In this document: positions 39,663 through 52,256 of the stretch, in pieces
Position numbering within the stretch: the stretch's first letter is position 1
Layout of the letters: the number at the start of each line of letters is the position of its first letter
Origin: Limisphaerales bacterium
GTDB taxonomy: Bacteria > Patescibacteriota > Microgenomatia > UBA1406 > GWC2-37-13
Length of the DNA: 52,256 nt
Direction of reading: 5' to 3'
Assembly (NCBI GenBank): GCA_044356445.1
Contig: JBIKWE010000001.1
Coordinates: 1-52,256 of the forward strand
Made by a program: the position numbers and the translations under genes
The notes under the pieces: model-generated
The model's input: the letters and a program-made list of their open reading frames with translations, nothing else
The model's database searches: none
Told to the model about the DNA's origin: nothing

Positions 39663-39691
39663 TTGACAAATGCAAACAACTTGCATATAAT
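39663..39691 (+). promoter_or_regulatory. Consensus promoter of znuABC-ddl (TTGACA-17 nt-TATAAT)
   Basis: TTGACA at 39663-39668 and TATAAT at 39686-39691. The ATG at 39698 is 6 nt after the -10. Confidence 0.6.
39670..39686. promoter_or_regulatory. Palindrome ATGCAA-N5-TTGCAT in the znu promoter spacer (candidate metalloregulator operator)
   Basis: Perfect 6-bp arms (39670-39675 and 39681-39686) between the -35 and -10, the classical position for Zur-type repression. Confidence 0.35.
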
Positions 39692-39697
39692 CAAGAT

Positions 39698-40687
39698 ATG
39701 TTACATAAAAAAACAATATTTTCCTTTTTAATTTTAGGCGTTTTTTTGTTGGTTGCAGTATTCCTCTTTTTAAGAAACAACTGGTCTTCTGAAATTAAAA
39801 ATAATAATAAGCCAAAAGTGACTGCCAGTATTTTTCCCATTTATGATATTGTAAAAAAGGTCGCAGGTGAGAAAATTGATGTTGAGCTTATTTTACCACC
39901 GGGTGCCAGTCCTCATACATATGAACCAAAACCATCAGATATTAAAAAGATACAAAATTCCTCAGCCGTATTTATTGCTGGTCATGGACTTGATTTGTGG
40001 GTTTCAAATATTATCAAAGATGGTAATAGTGTAACAATAATTCCTGTAGACAAAAATGTTACGCTTAAGAGTTATGAAGAATTTGAGAAAATAAACGCAG
40101 TAAAAAGTGATAATCACACTGAAGACACTCACCACAATGAACATGAGGAAACTGATATTAGTCATTCCCATGAAGGTGTTGACCCTCATTATTATTTATC
40201 TATAAAAAATGGACAGCTCATTGCAAAACAAATAAGTTCAGAGCTTCAAATATTGTTTCCTGAATTTAAAAATGAAATCTTAAAAAATGAAAAACAATAC
40301 TTAACTGAATTGAGAAAAATCGAAGAAGAAATAAATTCTAAAATTAGTAAAGTTCAAGGTAAAAGAATAGCCACATTTCATAATGCATGGAATTATTTTG
40401 CTGAAGAATTAGGAGTGAAGGTGGTAGCAACTTTTGAAGAATATCCCGGTGAGGAACCAACCGCACTTTATTTAAAGAATTTTAGTGAAAAAATAAAAGA
40501 TAATAAGCTTAAAGTTGTATTTACAGAACCGCAATTTTCCACAAAAGCGCTATTACCTATCGCGAAGGATTTAGGAGTTACAATTATTGAGATAGATCCA
40601 ATTGGTGGGTTACCTGAAAGAGATAGTTTCATCAAGTTAATGAAGTATAATGTTTTAGAGATTGAAAAAACATTATCTAATCAATGA
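39698..40687 (+). CDS. znuA: Metal (probably zinc) ABC transporter substrate-binding protein
   Basis: Cluster A-I SBP (PGASPHTYEP, DPHYYLS, ATFHNAWNYF) with a His/Asp/Glu-rich loop DNHTEDTHHNEHEETDISHSHEG, as in ZnuA. Confidence 0.8.
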   Translation: MLHKKTIFSFLILGVFLLVAVFLFLRNNWSSEIKNNNKPKVTASIFPIYDIVKKVAGEKIDVELILPPGASPHTYEPKPSDIKKIQNSSAVFIAGHGLDLWVSNIIKDGNSVTIIPVDKNVTLKSYEEFEKINAVKSDNHTEDTHHNEHEETDISHSHEGVDPHYYLSIKNGQLIAKQISSELQILFPEFKNEILKNEKQYLTELRKIEEEINSKISKVQGKRIATFHNAWNYFAEELGVKVVATFEEYPGEEPTALYLKNFSEKIKDNKLKVVFTEPQFSTKALLPIAKDLGVTIIEIDPIGGLPERDSFIKLMKYNVLEIEKTLSNQ

Positions 40688-41397
40688 ATATTCTTGAAGT
40701 AAAAAGCATAACTGCACAATACGACAACACCCTTGAACCAGCAATTGAAAATATTAGCTTTAATCTTGAAAAGGGAACGATCACGGCTTTACTTGGACCC
40801 AACGGATCAGGAAAGTCAACAATATTAAAAGCTATCTTAGGCAGCATTTCTTTTTCGGGTGAAATTTTAATAAATGGTGTTAAAGCAAGTAAAAAATTAG
40901 GAATAGTTTCTTATGTTCCTCAAAGATTTAATTTCGACACATCATTTCCCTTAACTGTTTATGAGTTTTTAAATATTTCTGCACCAGAGACAATTAATCA
41001 ATCTATTCAAATTTCAAAAGTTTTAGATCAAATTGAGATGATAAAGTTTAAGGACTCACTTTTATCACAATTATCTGGCGGTCAGTTACAAAGAGTGCTT
41101 ATTGCCCGAGCATTATTAAAAGAGCCTCAACTCTTAATTCTTGATGAGCCTGAGTCGGGTATAGATATAAATATTAGTCAGAAATTTTATAATCTTATAA
41201 AATTTCTGGTTGCCACAAAAGGCTTAACGGTTCTAATCGCAACTCATGAGCTTGAAATAATAAACTCCTTTTCAGATCAAGTCATATGTATTAATAAAAA
41301 TATTCTATGCTCGGGACGGCCTTCAGACGTTTTGGATTCTAATTTTTTTTCGAGACTTTATGGGACTAATGTGAAAATTTATCCTCATAAGCATTAA
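40684..41397 (+). CDS. znuC: Metal ABC transporter ATP-binding protein
   Basis: Walker A GPNGSGKST, signature LSGGQLQR, Walker B LLILDEP. ATGA overlap with znuA. Confidence 0.87.
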   Translation: MNILEVKSITAQYDNTLEPAIENISFNLEKGTITALLGPNGSGKSTILKAILGSISFSGEILINGVKASKKLGIVSYVPQRFNFDTSFPLTVYEFLNISAPETINQSIQISKVLDQIEMIKFKDSLLSQLSGGQLQRVLIARALLKEPQLLILDEPESGIDINISQKFYNLIKFLVATKGLTVLIATHELEIINSFSDQVICINKNILCSGRPSDVLDSNFFSRLYGTNVKIYPHKH

Positions 41398-41398
41398 T

Positions 41399-42196
41399 AT
41401 GGATTTATCATTTATAGCTTTACCATTTTTTCAAAGAGCCATTTTGGGGGGCTTAATTGTCAGTTTTCTGTTATCTTTCTTTGGCGTAATTACCATCTTA
41501 AGAAGGTCGTCCTTTTTTGGCGACGCCGTGGCTCATGCCTCGCTCACGGGCGTCGCCATTGGATTATTGTCTGGTTTTTCACCGCTTTTGTCAGCAATTT
41601 TTTATGCATCAGGTGTGTCTTTTTTAATTCCATATCTTAATAAAGTAAGCAAACTTGCCATTGATTCATTACTGGGAATAATATTACCCGTCTCTATGTC
41701 TTTGGGAGTTATTTTAATAACCGCATCCCCAGGTTATCAGCCTGAGTTATTATCTTTTTTGTTTGGCAACATATTAAGCATTAGTAATACAGATCTTATT
41801 GTAATTTCTATAACGAGCTTCATTGCCATATTCTGCTTTTTTTTCTTTTTTAGAAAAATTATAAATATCAGTTTTGATCCAGATTACGCAGTAATATTGG
41901 GTATTAGAGTAAGGCTCATTGATAATCTGTATCATATTTTGCTGGCTATTTCGATTGTGCTTGGCGTTTCGATTGTTGGGGTAATTTTAGTAAATGCCTT
42001 ATTAATAATTCCGGCATCTATTGCCAAACTTTATTCTAAATCATTAACTCAAATGCTTGTTCTAACTCCAATATTAGCCGTATCCATAACATTATTTGGT
42101 ATTTTTTTATCAATATTATTCGATATCCCAACCGGTCCAACCATTGCTTTGGTTGGAGGATTTGCTTTTCTCGTCTCTGCTATAATTAAGCGATGA
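41399..42196 (+). CDS. znuB: Metal ABC transporter permease (ABC-3 family)
   Basis: 265 aa, about 8 TM helices, FFGDAVAHASLTGVA motif typical of ZnuB/TroCD-type permeases. Confidence 0.85.
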   Translation: MDLSFIALPFFQRAILGGLIVSFLLSFFGVITILRRSSFFGDAVAHASLTGVAIGLLSGFSPLLSAIFYASGVSFLIPYLNKVSKLAIDSLLGIILPVSMSLGVILITASPGYQPELLSFLFGNILSISNTDLIVISITSFIAIFCFFFFFRKIINISFDPDYAVILGIRVRLIDNLYHILLAISIVLGVSIVGVILVNALLIIPASIAKLYSKSLTQMLVLTPILAVSITLFGIFLSILFDIPTGPTIALVGGFAFLVSAIIKR

Positions 42197-48097: not shown

Positions 48098-48171
48098 CGG
48101 AGTGTAGTTCAGATGGTAGAACACACGGTTCGGGACCGTGAGGTCGCTCGGTTCAAGTCCGGCCACTCCGA
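48098..48171 (+). tRNA. tRNA-Pro (anticodon CGG)
   Basis: C1-G72 acceptor CGGAGTG/CACTCCG, anticodon arm CACGG-TTCGGGA-CCGTG. The T arm has one extra or mispaired base (GCTCGG-TTCAAGT-CCGGC). Confidence 0.8.
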
Positions 48172-48230
48172 CAGAGAATAATGTTAAATCTAGTTAATAT
48201 TTAAAATAATATAGGTATAATACATAATAA

Positions 48231-48304
48231 CGGGACGTAGTTCAGATGGCTAGAACGTACGCTTTGGGAGCGTAAGGTCGCGAGTTCAAGTCTCGCCGTC
48301 CCGA
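48231..48304 (+). tRNA. tRNA-Pro (anticodon TGG)
   Basis: CGGGACG/CGTCCCG acceptor, anticodon arm TACGC-TTTGGGA-GCGTA, T arm GCGAG-TTCAAGT-CTCGC, discriminator A. Confidence 0.9.
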
Positions 48305-48492
48305 CATTAGGTCTTCATAAGAATCTTCTTTACATTTTTTTATAAATTTCATCTACATGAATTTATATTTAAAATAGAAAAAATAGTAAGAACATAAATC
48401 TATAAGAATAGTATGTTTTTATAATACCCTTTAAACTCATTCTTTAATAATTCATAGCCCGTAAACAATTTAGCAGATTTTGTTTTTGAGAT

Positions 48493-48513
48493 AATTGATT
48501 CGTTAAATCAATT
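48493..48513. promoter_or_regulatory. Perfect inverted repeat AATTGATT-N5-AATCAATT overlapping the -35 box
   Basis: Arms at 48493-48500 and 48506-48513. The right arm overlaps TTGACA (48512-48517). Candidate operator. Confidence 0.3.
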
Positions 48514-48539
48514 GACAAACAAAGGGCAAATGCTATAAT
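48512..48539 (+). promoter_or_regulatory. Near-consensus extended -10 promoter (TTGACA-16 nt incl. TGc-TATAAT) of the CooC-like/PLP operon
   Basis: TTGACA at 48512-48517, TG at 48531-48532, TATAAT at 48534-48539. Unlike most operons here, it predicts a leader of about 38 nt before ATG 48584. Confidence 0.6.
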
Positions 48540-48545
48540 CTTTAT

Positions 48546-48560
48546 TGCAACATATTTGCA
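48546..48560. promoter_or_regulatory. Palindrome TGCAA-N5-TTGCA at the predicted transcription start or leader
   Basis: Arms at 48546-48550 and 48556-48560. Same core and spacing as the znu promoter palindrome (39670-39686). Confidence 0.3.
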
Positions 48561-48583
48561 TTTATATATTTACATTTTAAATT

Positions 48584-49528
48584 ATGAGAATTGGATTTTT
48601 AGGAAAAGGAGGAAGTGGTAAATCAACGCTTTCTGCCTCATATATCACATATCTTGTTAAAAAAAAACAATCTGTAATTGCTATTGATGCAGATGTGAAT
48701 GTTCATCTTGCAAAAATGTTGGTACCAAAATCAACAGATATAAGAACCATCGGTAGCAATTTTCTTGAAGTCAGTAAGTATCTAAAAGGTAAACGAAAAG
48801 GTATAAGCACCATGGTGGCTACCACTCCACCATCACTGCAATCACGATTTATTTATCCAAATAAAGATGATGCCTTTATTCGCAAATTTGGGGTACAAAT
48901 TAATGACTATCTATCACTTTTAACCATTGGGACTTACGACGAATCTGACGTTGGACACACCTGTTATCATGGAAAATTAAATACGCTTGAAGCAATATAT
49001 CATCACATGCTTGATAATGAGTATAGTCACGTTGTTGCTGATGCGACAGCAGGAATTGATAATTTAGGAACATCACTCTTTTTTGCATATGATTTGAATG
49101 TATTTATTGTAGAGCCAACACTAAAAAGTATTCAAGTGTATAAAGAATTTAAAAAAATTTCTGATAAAGAGGGCTTGCATACAGTTGCCATTATCAATAA
49201 ATGCGAACAAGAAGATGAAGTCTTTATTCATAAACATATCGATACAAAAAGTATTATTGGATATGTGCCATATTCAACTTATATAAAAAAAATGGAGCAA
49301 GGAAAAGCGTCGGCCTTTGATAGTTTTATTGAAGAACAGAAAGCTGTATTTACATCTCTAGAAAATTATATAAAAGAATCAGTTAAAAAAGATTGGAACA
49401 TTTATTACAAACGGCTTCTTGAAGTACACATTAAAAACTCAAAAGAGTGGTGGAATGATTATTTTCACGAAGAAATTGATAAGCAAGAAGATAAAAAATT
49501 TTCTTATGAAAAAGTATTTACCATATAA
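48584..49528 (+). CDS. CooC-family (MinD/ParA-class) P-loop ATPase, Cys-x-His variant, with C-terminal extension
   Basis: Deviant Walker A GKGGSGKST, AIDADVNVHL, GHTCYHGKLN in place of the CooC ..C-x-C.. metal motif, VVADATAGIDNLG, FIVEPT, INKC, GYVPYS. The last 60 aa or so have no counterpart in the CooC I remember. Confidence 0.8.
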   Translation: MRIGFLGKGGSGKSTLSASYITYLVKKKQSVIAIDADVNVHLAKMLVPKSTDIRTIGSNFLEVSKYLKGKRKGISTMVATTPPSLQSRFIYPNKDDAFIRKFGVQINDYLSLLTIGTYDESDVGHTCYHGKLNTLEAIYHHMLDNEYSHVVADATAGIDNLGTSLFFAYDLNVFIVEPTLKSIQVYKEFKKISDKEGLHTVAIINKCEQEDEVFIHKHIDTKSIIGYVPYSTYIKKMEQGKASAFDSFIEEQKAVFTSLENYIKESVKKDWNIYYKRLLEVHIKNSKEWWNDYFHEEIDKQEDKKFSYEKVFTI

Positions 49529-50933
49529 CCAAATAATTACACCAAAAATACATCCTGATGTGGCATATTTCATTGATCACTTTACTTCAGTGATTATAGA
49601 AAAAACAACAGATTCATTAGGTGTATTACATGTTGTTTTTCCTCATGTAGTAACAGAAAGAATTGAAACAATGCAAAAATATTTTGCAGAAAACAACACA
49701 AATGTTCAAATATACGCTGCACATAAACCAACTCGCTCTACCGCTTTAATGCGTGCTTTGTATAAAAAAGGAGTTCATGTTGATGTTGCATCTTTAGGAG
49801 AGCTTGAACATGCGCTAAGTATCGGTTGGGATGGAAAAAATATCGAATGCACAGGTTCAAAACATCCTCAATTTATTCAAAAGGCTATAGACGTAGGCGC
49901 ATTAATCAGTGTTGATTCAGTTCATGAATTACAACTTGTTATTGCCTTATCAAAGAAGAAAAATGTTCGGATATTGTTGCGTATTTCTAATCCAAGTTGC
50001 TCTGACAGAAATCAAGTATTGCGCACATCTCGTTTTGGAATTATCAAAGATCGTATAGAATCTTTTGTGTATCCACTTTTAAAAGATAATCAACATATTC
50101 AGCTAATGGGTTTTCATATTCATAACGATGAGCGGGACGCTGATGTAAAGGGAGAATATGTTTTTGATCTGCTTAGCTTGATACAAAAAGCCTATGCACA
50201 AGGATTCTTACCTTCAATTATAAATATTGGAGGCGGTTGGCGAGATACTGAGCTTAGTTATCCAGATCAGTGGCAATCATTTATAGAATCTCTTGAGCAT
50301 AATCTAGTAAAGGGAAAAACGCTAAAGACATGGAGACAAGGGTCTTTTGGTCTTTATCTAAATGAAAAGGGTAGAATTTCCGGAAGAGAAAAGATTCAAG
50401 GAAAATTTTTAGAAATTCCCATGCAAGTAAGTATTTTTAAATTGCTCAACAAGAAGAATAGTGAAGGACACACTGTAAAAGAATTAATTAACGAATCTTT
50501 GTTGCAGCTTATGATTGAACCCGGCTATACGTTATTTACGAGCGCAGGATTTAGTGCCATGACAGTTTTATCGGTTGAAGATAATGCAGACGGCACAAAA
50601 CGTGTAGTTGTTGATGGAAATATGTATGATTTATCAATTCAAATGAGAGAACAATTTTTTGATCCATATTTATTATCTAAACAAGACAAAGACGAAGAAA
50701 CTAATTGGGAGGGTTATATTGTGGGCAACTTATGTCGTGAAGAAGATATGCTACTCAAGCGAGCTGTTAACTTTTCAAAGATACCCGAACCCGGCGATGT
50801 TATTGTTTTTTTAAATACAAGTGCTTACAGTTCTTCATTTGAAACTTCTCATTCTCACATGCATGCTCCTGCAAAGGAGTTGGTCGTATATAAGGAAAAA
50901 AATAATAAGTTTACATACTCTATATCTTTATGA
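49506..50933 (+). CDS. Fold-type III PLP-dependent enzyme, Orn/DAP/Arg-decarboxylase-like
   Basis: AAHKPT (PLP lysine context), HIHNDE, INIGGGW, MIEPGYTLF, GNLCREEDML. Start at ATG 49506 (MKKYLPYN), which overlaps the upstream gene by 23 nt. The track start at 49419 is deeper inside it. Confidence 0.7.
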   Translation: MKKYLPYNQIITPKIHPDVAYFIDHFTSVIIEKTTDSLGVLHVVFPHVVTERIETMQKYFAENNTNVQIYAAHKPTRSTALMRALYKKGVHVDVASLGELEHALSIGWDGKNIECTGSKHPQFIQKAIDVGALISVDSVHELQLVIALSKKKNVRILLRISNPSCSDRNQVLRTSRFGIIKDRIESFVYPLLKDNQHIQLMGFHIHNDERDADVKGEYVFDLLSLIQKAYAQGFLPSIINIGGGWRDTELSYPDQWQSFIESLEHNLVKGKTLKTWRQGSFGLYLNEKGRISGREKIQGKFLEIPMQVSIFKLLNKKNSEGHTVKELINESLLQLMIEPGYTLFTSAGFSAMTVLSVEDNADGTKRVVVDGNMYDLSIQMREQFFDPYLLSKQDKDEETNWEGYIVGNLCREEDMLLKRAVNFSKIPEPGDVIVFLNTSAYSSSFETSHSHMHAPAKELVVYKEKNNKFTYSISL

Positions 50934-52256
50934 TTTATCAAAATATATCTGAATTAATTGGAAACACTCCACTGTTAAAAATAGATCCACATGTTCACGG
51001 TTTAAAAAATATTGATGTGTATGCAAAGCTAGAGTACTATAATCCATTTGGTTCAGTAAAAGACCGTATAGCTCAAGGAATGCTTGAACCAATTCTAAAT
51101 AATTTAAAAAAACATGACAAAACTGTTGTAGAGGCCTCCAGTGGAAATACTGCAAAAGCATTGAGTGCCCTTTGTGGTATTCATTCTTTACGATTTAAAA
51201 CGGTAACAAATAGAATCAAAATGCCCGAGGTCAGAATGATACTACAAACTTTAGGTTCAGAAATTGAGGAACTTCCAGGCCTTTCTGATTGTCCAGACCC
51301 AAATGACCCCAATGACTTTACCACTGTTGCAGCAAATACGGCAAAACAGCACCCTGAAAAATATTATTACACAGATCAATATTTTAATGAGAGAAACCGA
51401 CAAACCCATTATGAAACAACAGGTAAAGAGATAGCGCAAGATTTAGAAAGTGTGGATTATTTTTTTGGATTTTTAGGAACATGCGGTAGCTCCATGGGAG
51501 CGGGTCAATATTTGAAAGAGCATAAAAAAACAAAAGTAGTGGGGGTAGTTGCAGATGCTGGGCACCACATACCCGGTGGAAGAAATATTAATGAATTATG
51601 GGAAGTTGGTTTTTTTGAAAAGGATTTTTATGAAGATATAATCTCTGGTTCGAGCATTGAAGCTATTGAACATATGCTAATTTTAAATAGAAAAGCAGGA
51701 ATGTTATGTGGACCGACGACAGGGCTTACATATGCAGCCACAATACGTCATTTAAAAAAAATTGATTCTATAATTCCAAAAGAAGAAAGGCGTTCGGCTG
51801 TGTTTATTGCTTGTGATAGGTTAGAACCATATATGAGCTATGTGCAACGATATAAACCTGAGTTGTATAGCAATAAAACAACAAGTCGTAAAACTGTTTA
51901 TTCATTATCAGAAGACATTGTTGCAACAGCAAAAACAATAAATGCTCAAGATTTAGAAAAAGAGAAAGATGTGATGGTTATAGACATACGAAGTAGATTT
52001 GCTTATAGAATAGGGTCGATACCAAACTCTATAAATATTATGGATGAATTTCTTGCTCAAATTATTGAGGAAGGGCAGGCATTTCCTATTTCACAAAAAA
52101 TCGTCATTGTGTGTCGTATTGGAGATATCTCCAAGAAGTATGCGGCATTTTTAACTCAAGAAGGCTATGACGCAAAATCTTTAGAAGGAGGGATAACTGC
52201 TTGGCGAGATGCAGGATTTATGTTGAATAGACATTTAAAAAACATTCATGAAAGCA
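50930..52256 (+). CDS. Fold-type II PLP enzyme (CysK/CysM/SbnA-like) fused to a C-terminal rhodanese domain; 3' end beyond the window
   Basis: My own translation; the ORF has no stop in the window, so it is absent from the track. MIYQNISELIGNTPLLKI, NPFGSVKDR (Lys codon 51059-51061), SSGNTAKAL, GTCGSSMG. Rhodanese from about 51936 with active-site loop CRIGDIS (Cys codon 52112-52114). ATGA overlap with the upstream stop. Confidence 0.8.
   Translation, partial: MIYQNISELIGNTPLLKIDPHVHGLKNIDVYAKLEYYNPFGSVKDRIAQGMLEPILNNLKKHDKTVVEASSGNTAKALSALCGIHSLRFKTVTNRIKMPEVRMILQTLGSEIEELPGLSDCPDPNDPNDFTTVAANTAKQHPEKYYYTDQYFNERNRQTHYETTGKEIAQDLESVDYFFGFLGTCGSSMGAGQYLKEHKKTKVVGVVADAGHHIPGGRNINELWEVGFFEKDFYEDIISGSSIEAIEHMLILNRKAGMLCGPTTGLTYAATIRHLKKIDSIIPKEERRSAVFIACDRLEPYMSYVQRYKPELYSNKTTSRKTVYSLSEDIVATAKTINAQDLEKEKDVMVIDIRSRFAYRIGSIPNSINIMDEFLAQIIEEGQAFPISQKIVIVCRIGDISKKYAAFLTQEGYDAKSLEGGITAWRDAGFMLNRHLKNIHES

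What the first reader, a model, noticed from the sequence alone, without database searches (positions are those of the whole stretch)
48584..52256. tRNA-Pro-adjacent operon: CooC-type ATPase + type III PLP decarboxylase-like enzyme + CysK/SbnA-like-rhodanese fusion
Three ORFs are translationally coupled: a 23-nt overlap at 49506-49528 and an ATGA overlap at 50930-50933. They follow a 280-bp spacer directly after two tRNA-Pro genes, and the cluster is cut by the window end. Gene 1 is a CooC/MinD-class ATPase, a family known as the Ni-insertion chaperone for CO dehydrogenase, but no CODH/ACS gene is visible. Gene 2 is an Orn/DAP/Arg-decarboxylase-fold PLP enzyme, with no lysine or polyamine neighbours visible. 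Gene 3 is a cysteine-synthase-fold PLP enzyme fused to a catalytic rhodanese, with no cysE visible. I know of no characterised pathway that combines these three. Two partial analogies exist. One is the CysM/CysO/MoeZ(rhodanese) thiocarboxylate route to cysteine. The other is SbnA (CysK-like L-Dap synthase) plus SbnH (type III decarboxylase) of staphyloferrin B. A plausible reading is biosynthesis of a sulfur- or diamine-containing small molecule (thiol, cysteamine-like amine, metallophore precursor) linked to a metal-handling ATPase. That would be unusual for what looks like a biosynthetically reduced genome.
Basis: partly seen in the sequence, partly recalled or inferred. Interest (0 to 1): 0.8.

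Follow-up and report, generated by a model that had tools for sequence, protein, structure and literature searches.

The report
Zinc-starvation metal-ligand biosynthesis gene cassette
A horizontally acquired five-gene operon in a tiny-genome (CPR) bacterium appears to switch on together with the zinc importer and most likely makes a small sulfur/nitrogen metal-binding molecule; the same uncharacterised cassette occurs in many bacteria (including Streptomyces and Nocardia) and some archaea.

Summary
A CooC-like ATPase, a fold-III PLP decarboxylase-like enzyme and a CysK-like/rhodanese fusion are translationally coupled after two tRNA-Pro genes. An identical longer contig shows two further coupled genes, a SAM methyltransferase and a SufS-type cysteine desulfurase, followed by uvrA.

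Close relatives have uvrB, tRNAs and uvrA with nothing between, so the ~6 kb segment is an insertion. The decarboxylase/fusion pair is adjacent in 78 of 80 species genomes fetched, from CPR bacteria and Woesearchaeota to Streptomyces and Nocardia. The desulfurase accompanies it in 70.

In many non-actinobacterial loci and some Streptomyces/Actinoplanes loci the cassette sits beside COG0523/CobW GTPases, Fur-family genes and Zur-type boxes. In this window, TGCAA-N5-TTGCA occurs only twice: in the znuABC promoter and in the cassette promoter.

The fusion's best structural match is aspergillomarasmine A synthase, which makes a fungal metal chelator. The ATPase carries Cys-x-His where CooC has its Cys-x-Cys metal site.

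Best reading: a zinc-starvation-induced pathway to a small S/N metal ligand. The product is unknown and no publication was found. It is a new variant of SbnA/SbnH- and EDDS-type metallophore chemistry.

The parts
39671..39685 (.). Operator-like palindrome TGCAAACAACTTGCA. It fills the 17-nt spacer between the -35 (TTGACA, 39663-39668) and the -10 (TATAAT, 39686-39691) of the znuA promoter.
   Evidence: One of only two exact matches to TGCAA-N5-TTGCA in the 52-kb window (expected 0.18, and 2 of 100 shuffles reach two or more). Sequence read. The same element precedes znuA in relatives L094, L095 and L096.
39698..42196 (+). znuA-znuC-znuB-type metal ABC importer. It is not part of the cassette but is the predicted co-regulated operon.
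   Evidence: Pfam ZnuA 227 bits, ABC_tran 106 bits and ABC-3 220 bits. Syntenic with L094 and L096.
48098..48305 (+). tRNA-Pro(CGG) at 48098-48172 and tRNA-Pro(UGG) at 48231-48305. These are host genes that mark the left side of the insertion.
   Evidence: ARAGORN and Rfam. Relatives have tRNAs directly followed by uvrA.
48306..48583 (+). Left end of the inserted segment and the regulatory region of the cassette (278 nt).
   Evidence: No Rfam family or riboswitch was found, and no terminator. This stretch is absent from relatives L094-L096.
48493..48513 (.). Second palindrome, AATTGATT-cgtta-AATCAATT, abutting or overlapping the -35 hexamer. Its meaning is unknown.
   Evidence: Read directly from the sequence. 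No counterpart was noticed in the upstream regions of other loci printed (no dedicated search).
48512..48539 (+). Sigma-70-type promoter TTGACA-16 nt-TATAAT with a TG extension (12 of 12 consensus positions).
48546..48560 (.). Operator-like palindrome TGCAACATATTTGCA, starting 7 nt after the -10 and covering the predicted transcription start.
   Evidence: this is the second of the two window matches. The same element lies upstream of g1 in L006 and L091, of g2 in L008, of cobW genes in L089, at the head of the cluster in L088, and near g1 and a weak Fur-family match in L012.
48584..49528 (+). g1: CooC-like MinD-class ATPase (314 aa). It has the deviant Walker A GKGGSGKS and an invariant Cys127-x-His129.
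   Evidence: Pfam CbiA. PDB CooC1 3KJE at E = 1e-14 for the single sequence and 5.5e-32 for the family profile; 'CYH' aligns with the 'CYC' of CooC1. About 170 clusters at 50% identity with E <= 1e-30.
49506..50933 (+). g2: fold-type III PLP decarboxylase-like enzyme (475 aa), of the family NCBI calls 'Y4yA'.
   Evidence: Pfam. lysA model 118 bits against a cut-off of 298. Invariant K74, H206, GG242-243, EPG338-340, C410 and Y441. AF2 pLDDT 90.4; Foldseek hits DAPDC, D-Orn/Lys decarboxylase, BtrK, FslC and SbnH. 'Y4yA' name.
50930..52256 (+). g3: CysK-like PLP domain fused to a GlpE-like rhodanese domain. The window cuts it one codon plus the stop before its end (443 aa in full).
   Evidence: Pfam PALP plus Rhodanese. 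PLP Lys44, Cys121 and rhodanese Cys395 are each conserved in 86 of 86 sequences. AF2 pLDDT 91.6; the top Foldseek hits are AMA synthase 8H4H/8H4Q. The rhodanese Cys aligns with the catalytic Cys of GlpE.

Best explanation
The finding is the first three genes of a horizontally mobile five-gene operon: g1 ATPase, g2 decarboxylase, g3 CysK-rhodanese, g4 methyltransferase and g5 SufS-like desulfurase. It belongs to the cell's metal-starvation regulon, most probably zinc (Zur-type), and most likely builds a small sulfur- and nitrogen-containing metal ligand. That ligand would be either a secreted zincophore or an intracellular zinc-carrying aminothiol or thioether.

Proposed steps:
1. When the metal is scarce, a repressor leaves the TGCAA-N5-TTGCA operator shared by the znuABC promoter and the cassette promoter. 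The shared operator is shown; the repressor and the metal are inferred.
2. g5 takes sulfur from cysteine as a persulfide and passes it to the invariant rhodanese Cys395 of g3, and possibly on to invariant Cys121. This is inferred from strictly conserved catalytic residues.
3. The PLP domain of g3 turns O-phospho- or O-acetylserine into an aminoacrylate and couples it to the nucleophile by beta-replacement. The nucleophile would be the persulfide sulfur, or, as in AMA synthase and SbnA, an amino-acid nitrogen. This is inferred from fold and architecture.
4. g2 removes the alpha-carboxylate, leaving a 2-aminoethyl arm, as SbnH does. Inferred.
5. g4 methylates an amine or thioether. This is inferred; a g4 homologue matches the NNMT/PNMT/TEMT family.
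6. g1, a CooC-type ATP switch whose Cys-x-Cys metal site has become Cys-x-His, handles the metal in connection with the pathway. It is physically tied to g4, because natural g1-g4 fusion proteins exist. The fusion is shown; the role is inferred.
For: Cassette and conservation:
- Five translationally coupled genes lie on the identical contig L001.
- In 80 GTDB species loci, g2 is adjacent to g3 in 78, g5 is present in 70 and g1 in 11.
- Streptomyces, Actinoplanes and Micromonospora keep g2-g3-g5-methyltransferase in 30 loci.

Insertion:
- Relatives with 90% and 78% identical UvrB have uvrB, tRNAs, uvrA with no cassette.

Metal link:
- COG0523/CobW genes flank or interrupt the operon. There are three directly upstream in L089, one between g1 and g2 in L091, and adjacent copies in L086 and L087. 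Seven more loci, including a Woesearchaeote and Streptomyces, have one within 10 kb.
- A Fur-family gene lies directly upstream of g1 in L013, L014, L043 and L087, and divergently in L097.
- Canonical Zur-type boxes (GTTATAnTATAAC) lie upstream of g1 in L086 (two copies) and L007. They also precede cobW and the fur-g1 unit in L087.
- In this window, TGCAA-N5-TTGCA occurs only in the znuA promoter and the g1 promoter. The same element precedes znuA in relatives and cobW or g1 in other loci.

Chemistry:
- Invariant across the fetched loci: g3 PLP Lys, Cys121 and the rhodanese Cys (86 of 86); g5 PLP Lys and catalytic Cys (73 of 73). The g2 catalytic set is invariant in the diverse alignments of 23 and 25 sequences.
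- The g3 model's best PDB matches are AMA synthase 8H4H/8H4Q across both domains. AMA synthase and Fda4 are PLP plus rhodanese-like enzymes that use O-phosphoserine to build chelator or Dap units (PMC12751119).
- EDDS is a Zur-repressed chelator (PMC9252823).
- Variable tailoring and transport genes surround the cassette, as expected for a metabolite cluster. They include ABC exporters and MFS (L088), FecCD/FecE (L072), SBP_bac_5 plus permease and an ATP-grasp (L039), GNAT (6 loci), and Cys_Met_Meta_PP plus DAO (L098).

g1:
- CooC1 homology, with C-x-H in place of C-x-C.
- g1-g4 fusions P0299 and P0305 sit inside cassettes.
- A g4 homologue hits NNMT_PNMT_TEMT.
Against: - No product is known, and nothing here shows a metabolite.
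- This CPR window has no dedicated exporter or importer next to the cassette. The SBP_bac_5 gene after secG is also present in relatives that lack the cassette.
- The metal is not proven. PF01297 importers can be Mn- or Fe-specific, TTGCAA-N5-TTGCAA resembles the Streptomyces Nur (nickel) box (my recollection), CooC is a nickel chaperone family, and Nocardia replaces g1 with a CopZ-like HMA-domain protein.
- Most actinobacterial loci show no clear Zur box and carry PucR, TetR or two-component regulators instead.
- If g5 only feeds sulfur from cysteine into a cysteine-forming beta-replacement, the sulfur steps would be futile unless the acceptor or the fate differs.
- By sequence, g3 is no closer to AMA synthase or SbnA than to CysK/CysM. 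Its rhodanese domain shows no sequence match to that of AMA synthase.
- What a CooC-type ATPase would do in a metallophore pathway is unexplained.
Confidence: 0.5

Rival explanations
1. An AMA/EDDS-type, nitrogen-only aminopolycarboxylate zincophore. g3 works like AMA synthase or SbnA, forming a C-N bond between O-phosphoserine and an amino acid such as Asp, Glu or Ala. g2 decarboxylates the Dap-like end to an ethylenediamine arm. The product contains no sulfur, and the rhodanese domain and g5 serve another purpose, such as regulation or self-protection.
For: - The top structural matches of g3 are AMA synthase, covering both domains.
- AMA synthase and Fda4 share the PLP plus rhodanese-like build and form C-N bonds from O-phosphoserine.
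- g2 resembles SbnH and FslC as much as it resembles DAPDC.
- g3 has several invariant arginines (R95, R102, R218, R297) that could hold carboxylates.
- EDDS is Zur-controlled.
- L098 carries a DAO-type FAD oxidase, like Fda3.
- L087, L089, L097 and L099 have g1-g2-g3 without g5.
Against: - The rhodanese Cys and a second Cys in the PLP domain are conserved in 86 of 86 sequences.
- g5, with its catalytic Cys in 73 of 73, accompanies the pair in 70 of 80 loci. That degree of conservation argues for real sulfur transfer.
- No SbnB-type or NIS-synthetase genes appear in the neighbourhoods.
- The SbnA model scores below the CysK/M model.
Confidence: 0.17
2. A zinc-sparing housekeeping bypass rather than a metabolite pathway. 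Under zinc starvation the cassette would replace a zinc-dependent step in sulfur or amino-acid metabolism. Examples are persulfide trafficking that normally needs the Zn-protein SufU, cysteine supply from thiosulfate, or a low-molecular-weight thiol that replaces one made by Zn enzymes.
For: - Zur regulons commonly carry zinc-independent substitutes next to COG0523 genes (Haas et al. 2009, PMC2770081, listed; my knowledge of its content).
- The cassette occurs in minimal genomes (CPR, Woesearchaeota) that rarely carry secondary-metabolite clusters.
- Thioredoxin, glutaredoxin and a SulP transporter lie nearby in L090.
- No transporter lies beside the cassette in this window.
Against: - The role of a dedicated decarboxylase and methyltransferase is hard to fit.
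- The patchy distribution, with variable tailoring and export genes, looks like an accessory metabolite cluster.
- Close relatives do without it.
- The gammaproteobacterial-type carriers probably do not rely on SufU (my inference; the taxonomy of L086 and L087 was not established).
Confidence: 0.15
3. A maturation system for a metal cofactor or metalloenzyme. g1 (with COG0523 where present) would insert a metal into g2, g3 or another client, and the PLP and sulfur enzymes would build a sulfur-ligated metal site. This would be analogous to CooC with CODH, or LarE/LarC with the nickel-pincer cofactor.
For: - CooC homology.
- Two classes of NTPase metallochaperone sit in one operon in L091.
- An HMA-domain protein occupies the equivalent place in Nocardia.
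- A SufS-type sulfur donor is present.
Against: - No candidate client metalloenzyme is conserved with the cassette.
- g2 and g4 have no invariant Cys/His cluster that would form a metal site.
- The cassette is self-contained in L087 and L089, where only g1-g3 are present.
Confidence: 0.08
4. Three unrelated ordinary housekeeping genes (minD/mrp, lysA, cysK) that happen to be neighbours.
For: Pfam assigns only generic domains.
Against: - Scores are far below every equivalog cut-off.
- Gene order is conserved across phyla.
- The genes are translationally coupled.
- The cassette is absent from close relatives.
- The rhodanese fusion is invariant.
Confidence: 0.02

Closest known systems
Aspergillomarasmine A synthase (Aspergillus oryzae; PDB 8H4H/8H4Q) and Fda4 (Fusarium poae)
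   Same: They share the two-domain build of g3: a CysK-like PLP domain followed by a rhodanese-like domain. AMA synthase is the best structural match of the g3 model, at E = 7e-29 over about 470 columns. Both use O-phosphoserine in a beta-replacement to make building blocks of metal chelators or L-Dap.
   Different: They are fungal, only 23-24% identical to g3, and no closer by sequence than CysK. Their rhodanese domain is not detectably similar in sequence to that of g3. They form C-N bonds and have no desulfurase, decarboxylase or ATPase partner. Whether their rhodanese domain has a catalytic Cys was not checked here.
SbnA/SbnH of staphyloferrin B; the aes genes of the Zur-regulated zincophore [S,S]-EDDS; the y4yA-y4xP cluster of Sinorhizobium fredii
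   Same: Each pairs a CysK-fold beta-replacement enzyme with a fold-III decarboxylase to install an aminoethyl or Dap unit in a chelator. EDDS production is repressed by zinc through Zur. The g2 family is named after Y4yA, whose cluster also holds a cysteine synthase, y4xP.
   Different: None of these has a rhodanese fusion, a SufS-type desulfurase, a CooC-like ATPase or the g4 methyltransferase. The SbnB and NIS synthetases, which are essential there, are absent here. The SbnA model scores 143 against a cut-off of 350. The gene content of the aes cluster is from my memory and was not verified. The function of y4yA is unknown.
CooC1 (Ni-insertion ATPase of CO dehydrogenase; PDB 3KJE)
   Same: g1 is homologous over residues 1-236 (profile E = 5.5e-32). 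It shares the deviant Walker A with the signature lysine, and the metal-site cysteine sits at the same alignment position.
   Different: The metal site is Cys-x-His instead of Cys-x-Cys (invariant C127 and H129). g1 has an extra C-terminal region of about 80 aa. There is no CODH/ACS context. g1 associates with Zur-type and COG0523 genes and is sometimes fused to a methyltransferase or a HAD hydrolase.
CysM-CysO-MoeZ thiocarboxylate route to cysteine, and SufS-SufE/SufU persulfide relays
   Same: Both combine a PLP beta-replacement enzyme with protein-bound activated sulfur, and a rhodanese Cys or group-II desulfurase Cys acts as persulfide carrier. The g5 family keeps the RxGxHC motif in 73 of 73 sequences.
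   Different: No ubiquitin-like sulfur carrier, adenylase, SufE or SufU lies in the cassette. The rhodanese is fused to the synthase itself. g5 scores 307 against a cut-off of 475 for the SufS model.

Membership tests
CooC (CODH nickel-insertion ATPase) | MinD-class fold with deviant Walker A, and overall homology to CooC1 | tested here: met
   GKGGSGKS motif. 3KJE matches at E = 1e-14 (single sequence) and 5.5e-32 (family profile), aligned 1-236 against 1-219.
CooC (CODH nickel-insertion ATPase) | Cys-x-Cys metal-binding motif at the dimer interface | tested here: not met
   The motif aligns as Cys-Tyr-His. C127 and H129 are invariant in 16 family members.
CooC (CODH nickel-insertion ATPase) | Genomic association with cooS/acs genes | tested here: not met
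   No CODH/ACS Pfam family appears in any neighbourhood listed.
LysA (meso-diaminopimelate decarboxylase) | Score at or above the TIGR01048 equivalog cut-off | tested here: not met
   117.8 bits against a cut-off of 297.9. Streptomyces and Nocardia homologues score 105-122.
LysA (meso-diaminopimelate decarboxylase) | Fold-III catalytic set (PLP Lys, HxH His, GGG, EPG, Cys, Tyr) and the Arg of the EPGR motif | tested here: inconclusive
   K74, H206, G242-243, EPG338-340, C410 and Y441 are invariant. The Arg after EPG is Tyr in the window and is present only in one subfamily. A conserved insertion of roughly 60 aa with an invariant Trp lies between the barrel and the EPG motif.
CysK/CysM (O-acetylserine sulfhydrylase) | Score at or above the TIGR01136/01138/01139 cut-offs | tested here: not met
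   155.9 against 344, 138.8 against 394, and 127 against 351.
CysK/CysM (O-acetylserine sulfhydrylase) | PLP lysine and Asn-loop | tested here: met
   K44 and S70-S71-G72-N73-T74 are conserved in 86 of 86 (T74 in 84 of 86).
SbnA family (ACEGA synthase) | Score at or above the TIGR03945 cut-off, and an SbnB partner | tested here: not met
   143.5 bits against a cut-off of 350. No ornithine-cyclodeaminase-type gene appears in the neighbourhoods.
AMA synthase-like PLP plus rhodanese-like enzymes | CysK-like domain followed by a rhodanese-like domain; structural similarity over both domains | tested here: met
   Pfam PALP plus Rhodanese. Foldseek ranks 1-4 are 8H4H/8H4Q, with 460-478 aligned columns and TM about 0.63.
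AMA synthase-like PLP plus rhodanese-like enzymes | C-N bond formation between O-phosphoserine and an amino acid | not testable with these tools
   This needs an enzyme assay. Sequence identity is only 23-24%.
SufS-type (group II) cysteine desulfurase | PLP Lys and catalytic Cys in the RxGxHC motif | tested here: met
   HK in 73 of 73 and Cys in 73 of 73. Aminotran_5 scores 300 bits.
SufS-type (group II) cysteine desulfurase | Score at or above the TIGR01979 cut-off; SufE/SufU/SufBCD context | tested here: not met
   306.8 bits against a cut-off of 475. No suf genes are adjacent.
Zur (zinc-uptake regulator) regulon | Operator shared with the zinc importer promoter in the same genome | tested here: met
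   TGCAA-N5-TTGCA occurs only at the znuA and g1 promoters. ZnuABC confirmed by Pfam.
Zur (zinc-uptake regulator) regulon | Canonical Zur boxes and COG0523 or Fur-family neighbours in homologous loci | tested here: met
   L086, L087 and L007 boxes. cobW in L086, L087, L089 and L091 and in seven further loci. fur genes. This is not general in Nocardia or most Streptomyces.
Zur (zinc-uptake regulator) regulon | Zinc-dependent repression by a Zur protein | not testable with these tools
   No Fur-family gene lies in the 52-kb window. The metal specificity of the importer and of the operator is inferred.

The most novel reading that the evidence does not exclude
This is a previously unrecognised, horizontally mobile zinc-starvation pathway that makes a sulfur-containing zinc ligand (an aminothiol or thioether type zincophore or zinc shuttle). 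The ligand would be built by a persulfide-fed AMA-synthase-like enzyme. The pathway would be served by a new Cys/His branch of the CooC ATPase family acting as a zinc-handling switch. It is shared by CPR bacteria, DPANN archaea, Proteobacteria, Cyanobacteria-related lineages and very many actinomycete species.
Probability: 0.3. Interest if true: 0.85.

Novelty: new variant of a known kind. Interest (0 to 1): 0.72.

Why it matters
If correct, this would add a widespread and so far unstudied branch to bacterial and archaeal zinc acquisition. Possibly the first sulfur-based one.

- It would show that ultra-small CPR and DPANN cells, usually viewed as biosynthetically poor, acquire a dedicated pathway to cope with metal scarcity.
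- It would give a function to the enigmatic 'Y4yA family', to the bacterial CysK-rhodanese fusions (currently annotated 'cysteine synthase B') and to a CooC-like ATPase subfamily that has no CO dehydrogenase partner.
- Relatives of its key enzyme make aspergillomarasmine A, a zinc chelator that I recall as an inhibitor of metallo-beta-lactamases. The products could therefore be of practical interest.
- The hypothesis is directly testable, because cultured Streptomyces and Nocardia strains carry the cassette.

Tried and rejected
- An apparent g1-g2 fusion in L053 was an artefact of my ORF extension. Translation shows a stop codon between the two genes. Genuine fusions, g1-g4 and g1-HAD, were found later in the exhaustive search and checked in their genomic context.
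- Riboswitch or other RNA in the 278-nt spacer: there were no credible Rfam hits and no terminator.
- att-like direct repeats flanking the inserted segment: none was convincing. Cassette GC and GC3 match the host, so composition gives no sign of recent transfer.
- A Fur-family or COG0523 gene inside the window: none found by tblastn.
- Plasmid collection: only two unannotated Streptomyces megaplasmids matched.
- Literature: nine searches on combinations of rhodanese, cysteine synthase, decarboxylase, desulfurase, Zur, COG0523 and CooC found nothing describing this cassette. One apparent 'CooC' hit was the word 'cooccurrence'.
- The Nocardia gene X (428 aa) is not a diverged g1. Its N-terminal 340 aa match no Pfam or NCBIfam family.
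- The Streptomyces methyltransferase that follows g5 is not detectably homologous to g4 beyond the shared fold.
- Foldseek on g2 did not discriminate between DAPDC, D-Orn/Lys decarboxylase, BtrK, FslC and SbnH.
- A link to the neighbouring uvrABC genes or to the tRNA-Pro genes was rejected, because relatives have the same uvr/tRNA synteny without the cassette.

Full report
**1. The observation**

The window holds tRNA-Pro(CGG) at 48098-48172 and tRNA-Pro(UGG) at 48231-48305 (Rfam). A 278-nt spacer follows, and then three same-strand ORFs:
- g1, 48584-49528 (314 aa).
- g2, from ATG 49506 to 50933 (475 aa).
- g3, from ATG 50930 to the end of the window.

Pfam gives CbiA/MinD-type P-loop for g1, Orn_Arg_deC_N plus Orn_DAP_Arg_deC for g2, and PALP plus Rhodanese for g3. 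No NCBIfam equivalog cut-off is approached. The lysA model scores 118 against 298, cysKM 156 against 344, and SbnA 143 against 350. For g1, the minD models score 26-34 against cut-offs above 200. These are therefore not ordinary lysA, cysK or minD genes.

**2. What lies beyond the window**

The exact g1 protein is encoded on several metagenome contigs. L001 is identical to the window over the shared 4257 nt and extends it.
- g3 is 443 aa, so the window stops one codon plus the stop short of its end.
- g4 follows with a 14-nt overlap. It is 237 aa with a class-I SAM methyltransferase fold (weak Pfam hits). A full-length homologue in L098 (30% identical, E = 7e-38) is on record as matching the NNMT/PNMT/TEMT small-molecule N-/S-methyltransferase family.
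- g5 follows with an ATGA overlap. It is 388 aa, with Aminotran_5 at 300 bits; the SufS model scores 307 against a cut-off of 475.
- Then come an orphan 107-aa ORF (g6, no relatives), uvrA, uvrC and secG.

The unit is thus a five-gene, fully translationally coupled operon.

**3. Host and origin**

The UvrB encoded beside the cassette is most similar to proteins named as Woesebacteria and Roizmanbacteria (72-75% identity). The host is therefore a Microgenomates-type CPR/Patescibacteria bacterium.

Relatives whose UvrB is 90% identical (L094, L095) and 78% identical (L096, GCA_002329205.1) have uvrB, tRNAs, uvrA, uvrC, (secG) SBP_bac_5 with nothing in between. The roughly 6.2-kb segment from just after tRNA-Pro(UGG) to just before uvrA is therefore an insertion. 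I found no flanking repeats, and its GC and GC3 match the host. The tRNA adjacency marks the insertion point and is not a functional link.

**4. Conservation elsewhere**

The g3 architecture (PALP plus Rhodanese, about 440 aa) is a tight family. Members share 50-76% identity across Patescibacteria, Alphaproteobacteria, Chloroflexi, Verrucomicrobia, Deltaproteobacteria and Woesearchaeota.

The best 80 loci include many Nocardia, Streptomyces, Actinoplanes and Micromonospora species. They also include Bdellovibrionota, Obscuribacterales, a cyanobacterium, Clostridia and Bacillales.

tblastn of the six proteins against these loci gives:
- g2 directly upstream of g3 in 78 of 80.
- g5 present in 70 of 80.
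- g1 present in 11 of 80, all non-actinobacterial.

Lineage-specific layouts:
- Streptomyces, Actinoplanes and Micromonospora keep g2-g3-g5-methyltransferase (30 loci). That methyltransferase is not sequence-homologous to g4.
- Nocardia has PucR, a CBS-pair protein, g5, X, g2, g3, TetR. X is a 428-aa protein with an unknown N-terminal part and a CopZ-like HMA domain carrying MTCKHC.

Catalytic residues are strictly kept:
- g3: PLP Lys, Cys121 and rhodanese Cys395 in 86 of 86.
- g5: PLP Lys and the RxGxHC Cys in 73 of 73.
- g2: K74, H206, GG, EPG, C410 and Y441 invariant in the 23- and 25-sequence alignments.

**5. The metal link**

This is the main new result.

*(a) COG0523/CobW GTPases.*
- Three copies lie directly upstream of g1 in L089, the closest cassette relative.
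- One sits between g1 and g2 in L091.
- Adjacent copies occur in L086 and L087.
- Seven further loci have one within 10 kb, including a Woesearchaeote, a Bdellovibrionota genome and Streptomyces/Actinoplanes.

*(b) Fur-family genes.* One lies immediately upstream of g1 in L013, L014, L043 and L087, and one is divergent from it in L097.

*(c) Operator motifs in other loci.*
- Zur-type boxes (GTTATAnTATAAC) precede g1 in L086 (two copies) and L007.
- In L087 they precede both cobW and the fur-g1-g2-g3 unit.
- In L086 one also lies between cobW and an ABC transporter.
- L014 and L043 carry TGAAAATnATTTTCA in front of the fur gene that leads the operon.

*(d) Evidence inside this window.* The cassette has a perfect sigma-70 promoter at 48512-48539. 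The palindrome TGCAACATATTTGCA follows at 48546-48560. The pattern TGCAA-N5-TTGCA occurs exactly twice in the 52 kb (expected 0.18; 2 of 100 shuffles reach two). The other copy, at 39671-39685, fills the -35/-10 spacer of the promoter of ORFs 39698-42196. Those ORFs are ZnuA, ZnuC and ZnuB by Pfam.

The same element precedes:
- znuA in the cassette-free relatives L094-L096.
- g1 in L006 and L091.
- g2 in L008.
- cobW genes in L089.
- the head of the Verrucomicrobial cluster L088.

It also lies near g1, and near a weak Fur-family match, in L012.

The cassette is therefore predicted to be co-repressed with the metal importer. Zinc is the best-supported metal, on the basis of COG0523, canonical Zur boxes and ZnuA, but it is not proven. 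PF01297 importers can also be Mn- or Fe-specific. The element resembles the Streptomyces Nur box as I recall it. Most actinobacterial loci lack an obvious Zur box.

**6. The proteins**

*g1.* The family profile matches CooC1 (3KJE) at E = 5.5e-32 over residues 1-236. The next best hits, MinD and ArsA, match only around the P-loop. CooC1's Cys-x-Cys metal motif aligns with an invariant Cys127-Tyr-His129. In a dimer this would give a Cys2His2 site, which is an inference. The family is modest in size: about 170 clusters at 50% identity with E <= 1e-30.

Natural fusions exist:
- g1 plus a g4-type domain: P0299 and P0305 (BLASTP of g4 against the C-terminal part gives 3e-26 and 2e-27).
- g1 plus a HAD hydrolase: P0271.

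All three fusion genes sit inside cassettes next to g2-g3, each beside a second g1-sized gene (CbiA-type in L097 and L098; no Pfam hit in L099).

*g2.* The AlphaFold model is confident (pLDDT 90.4). It matches DAP decarboxylase, D-Orn/Lys decarboxylase, BtrK, and the siderophore decarboxylases FslC and SbnH about equally. NCBI calls a Streptomyces relative 'Y4yA family'. In S. fredii, y4yA lies beside the cysteine synthase y4xP in a cluster of unknown function.

*g3.* The model (pLDDT 91.6) has as its four best PDB matches aspergillomarasmine A synthase, 8H4H/8H4Q (E = 7e-29, both domains aligned). These rank ahead of CBS, CysK and SbnA.

AMA synthase and the Fusarium enzyme Fda4 are PLP enzymes with a rhodanese-like domain. 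They couple O-phosphoserine to Asp or Ala, giving the metal chelators toxin A and AMA, or L-Dap (PMC12751119). The rhodanese domain of g3 is GlpE-like, with its Cys aligned to the catalytic Cys of GlpE.

**7. Neighbourhood variability**

Around the conserved core the loci carry:
- exporters: two ABC exporters plus an MFS in L088, and MacB-type ABC with DUF3299 in L086, L087 and L007;
- importers: FecCD/FecE in L072, and SBP_bac_5 plus permease next to cobW in L039;
- tailoring enzymes: GNAT, ATP-grasp, a second methyltransferase, a response-regulator-fused pyridine-nucleotide disulfide oxidoreductase, Cys_Met_Meta_PP and DAO.

This pattern is typical of a small-molecule biosynthetic cluster.

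**8. Interpretation**

The best-supported reading is a metal-starvation-induced pathway, probably responding to zinc, that makes a small metal ligand. The logic resembles SbnA/SbnH, EDDS and AMA: a serine-derived C3N unit is attached by PLP beta-replacement and then decarboxylated to an aminoethyl arm. The difference is a built-in persulfide relay, from g5 to the rhodanese Cys and perhaps on to Cys121. This argues that sulfur enters the product.

*Shown:*
- the gene set, its coupling, its conservation and its insertion;
- the regulatory and genomic link to zinc-homeostasis genes;
- conservation of the catalytic residues;
- the structural kinship to AMA synthase;
- the g1-g4 fusions.

*Inferred:*
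- the substrates, the nucleophile (S or N) and the identity of the product;
- whether the product is secreted;
- what g1 does.

The rivals are set out separately: a sulfur-free AMA/EDDS-like chelator, a zinc-sparing housekeeping bypass, cofactor maturation, and chance neighbours.

**9. Novelty**

No curated family covers any of the five proteins at its cut-off, and nine literature searches found no description of the cassette. It is best classed as a new variant of the known kind 'metal-regulated metallophore pathways built on a CysK-fold enzyme plus a fold-III decarboxylase'.

Its unusual features are the active rhodanese fusion, the dedicated desulfurase, a Cys/His CooC-type ATPase, and a host range that includes CPR bacteria and DPANN archaea. 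Cultured actinomycetes carry it, so the hypothesis is directly testable.

Noticed in passing
window 39663-42196: A znuA-znuC-znuB operon has a near-consensus promoter (TTGACA, 17 nt, TATAAT) whose spacer is filled by the palindrome TGCAAACAACTTGCA. The ATG lies only 7 nt after the -10, so the mRNA may be leaderless.
   Followed up: partly
window 48493-48513: A second, different palindrome (AATTGATT-cgtta-AATCAATT) abuts the -35 of the cassette promoter. No counterpart was noticed in the upstream regions of other loci printed; no dedicated search was run.
   Followed up: no
L001 7151-7474 (about 2.0-2.3 kb beyond the window end): An orphan 107-aa ORF (g6) lies inside the inserted segment, between g5 and uvrA. 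It has no Pfam or NCBIfam hit and no homologue in any other locus.
   Followed up: partly
L094 12100-12510 compared with window 48098-48305: The close relative appears to carry three tRNA genes between uvrB and uvrA, where the window has two tRNA-Pro. The middle one was judged by eye and not run through ARAGORN. The window has lost it or the relative has gained it.
   Followed up: no
L008 2866-10341: A Bdellovibrionota genome carries two diverged g2-g3 pairs in convergent orientation (59% and 41% identity of g3 to the window protein).
   Followed up: no
L049 12573, L051 12635, L065 12571, L092 11538: In several Streptomyces loci a 7-1-7 palindrome, perfect or with one deviation (consensus TGAAAACCGTTTTCA), lies between g5 and the downstream methyltransferase gene. 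It may be an internal operator for a Fur-family or other regulator.
   Followed up: no
L031 7177-8463 and 33 other loci (Nocardia spp. and two actinomycete MAGs): Gene X sits between g5 and g2. It has a 340-aa N-terminal region with no known family, plus a C-terminal CopZ-like heavy-metal-associated domain (MTCKHC). It occupies the place that the CooC-like ATPase has in other phyla.
   Followed up: partly
L098 6934-17689 (GCA_030431715.1): An expanded cassette: a g1 paralogue, a g1-HAD hydrolase fusion, a 390-aa unknown protein, a 558-aa Cys_Met_Meta_PP enzyme, g2, g3, a g4-type methyltransferase, g5 and a DAO-type FAD oxidase.
   Followed up: partly
L086 3824-5447 and L007 5203-6400: Two conserved small genes of unknown function (289 aa and 134 aa) lie directly upstream of the Zur boxes and g1. 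The 134-aa protein is His-rich near its C terminus, with a GHDHG motif.
   Followed up: no
L090 14918-20303 (Patescibacteria relative of the cassette): Thioredoxin_3, an ArsP permease, a SulP/STAS sulfate-family transporter and a glutaredoxin lie within 7 kb downstream of the cassette. A resolvase and a restriction-modification module lie upstream, which suggests a mobile or island context.
   Followed up: no
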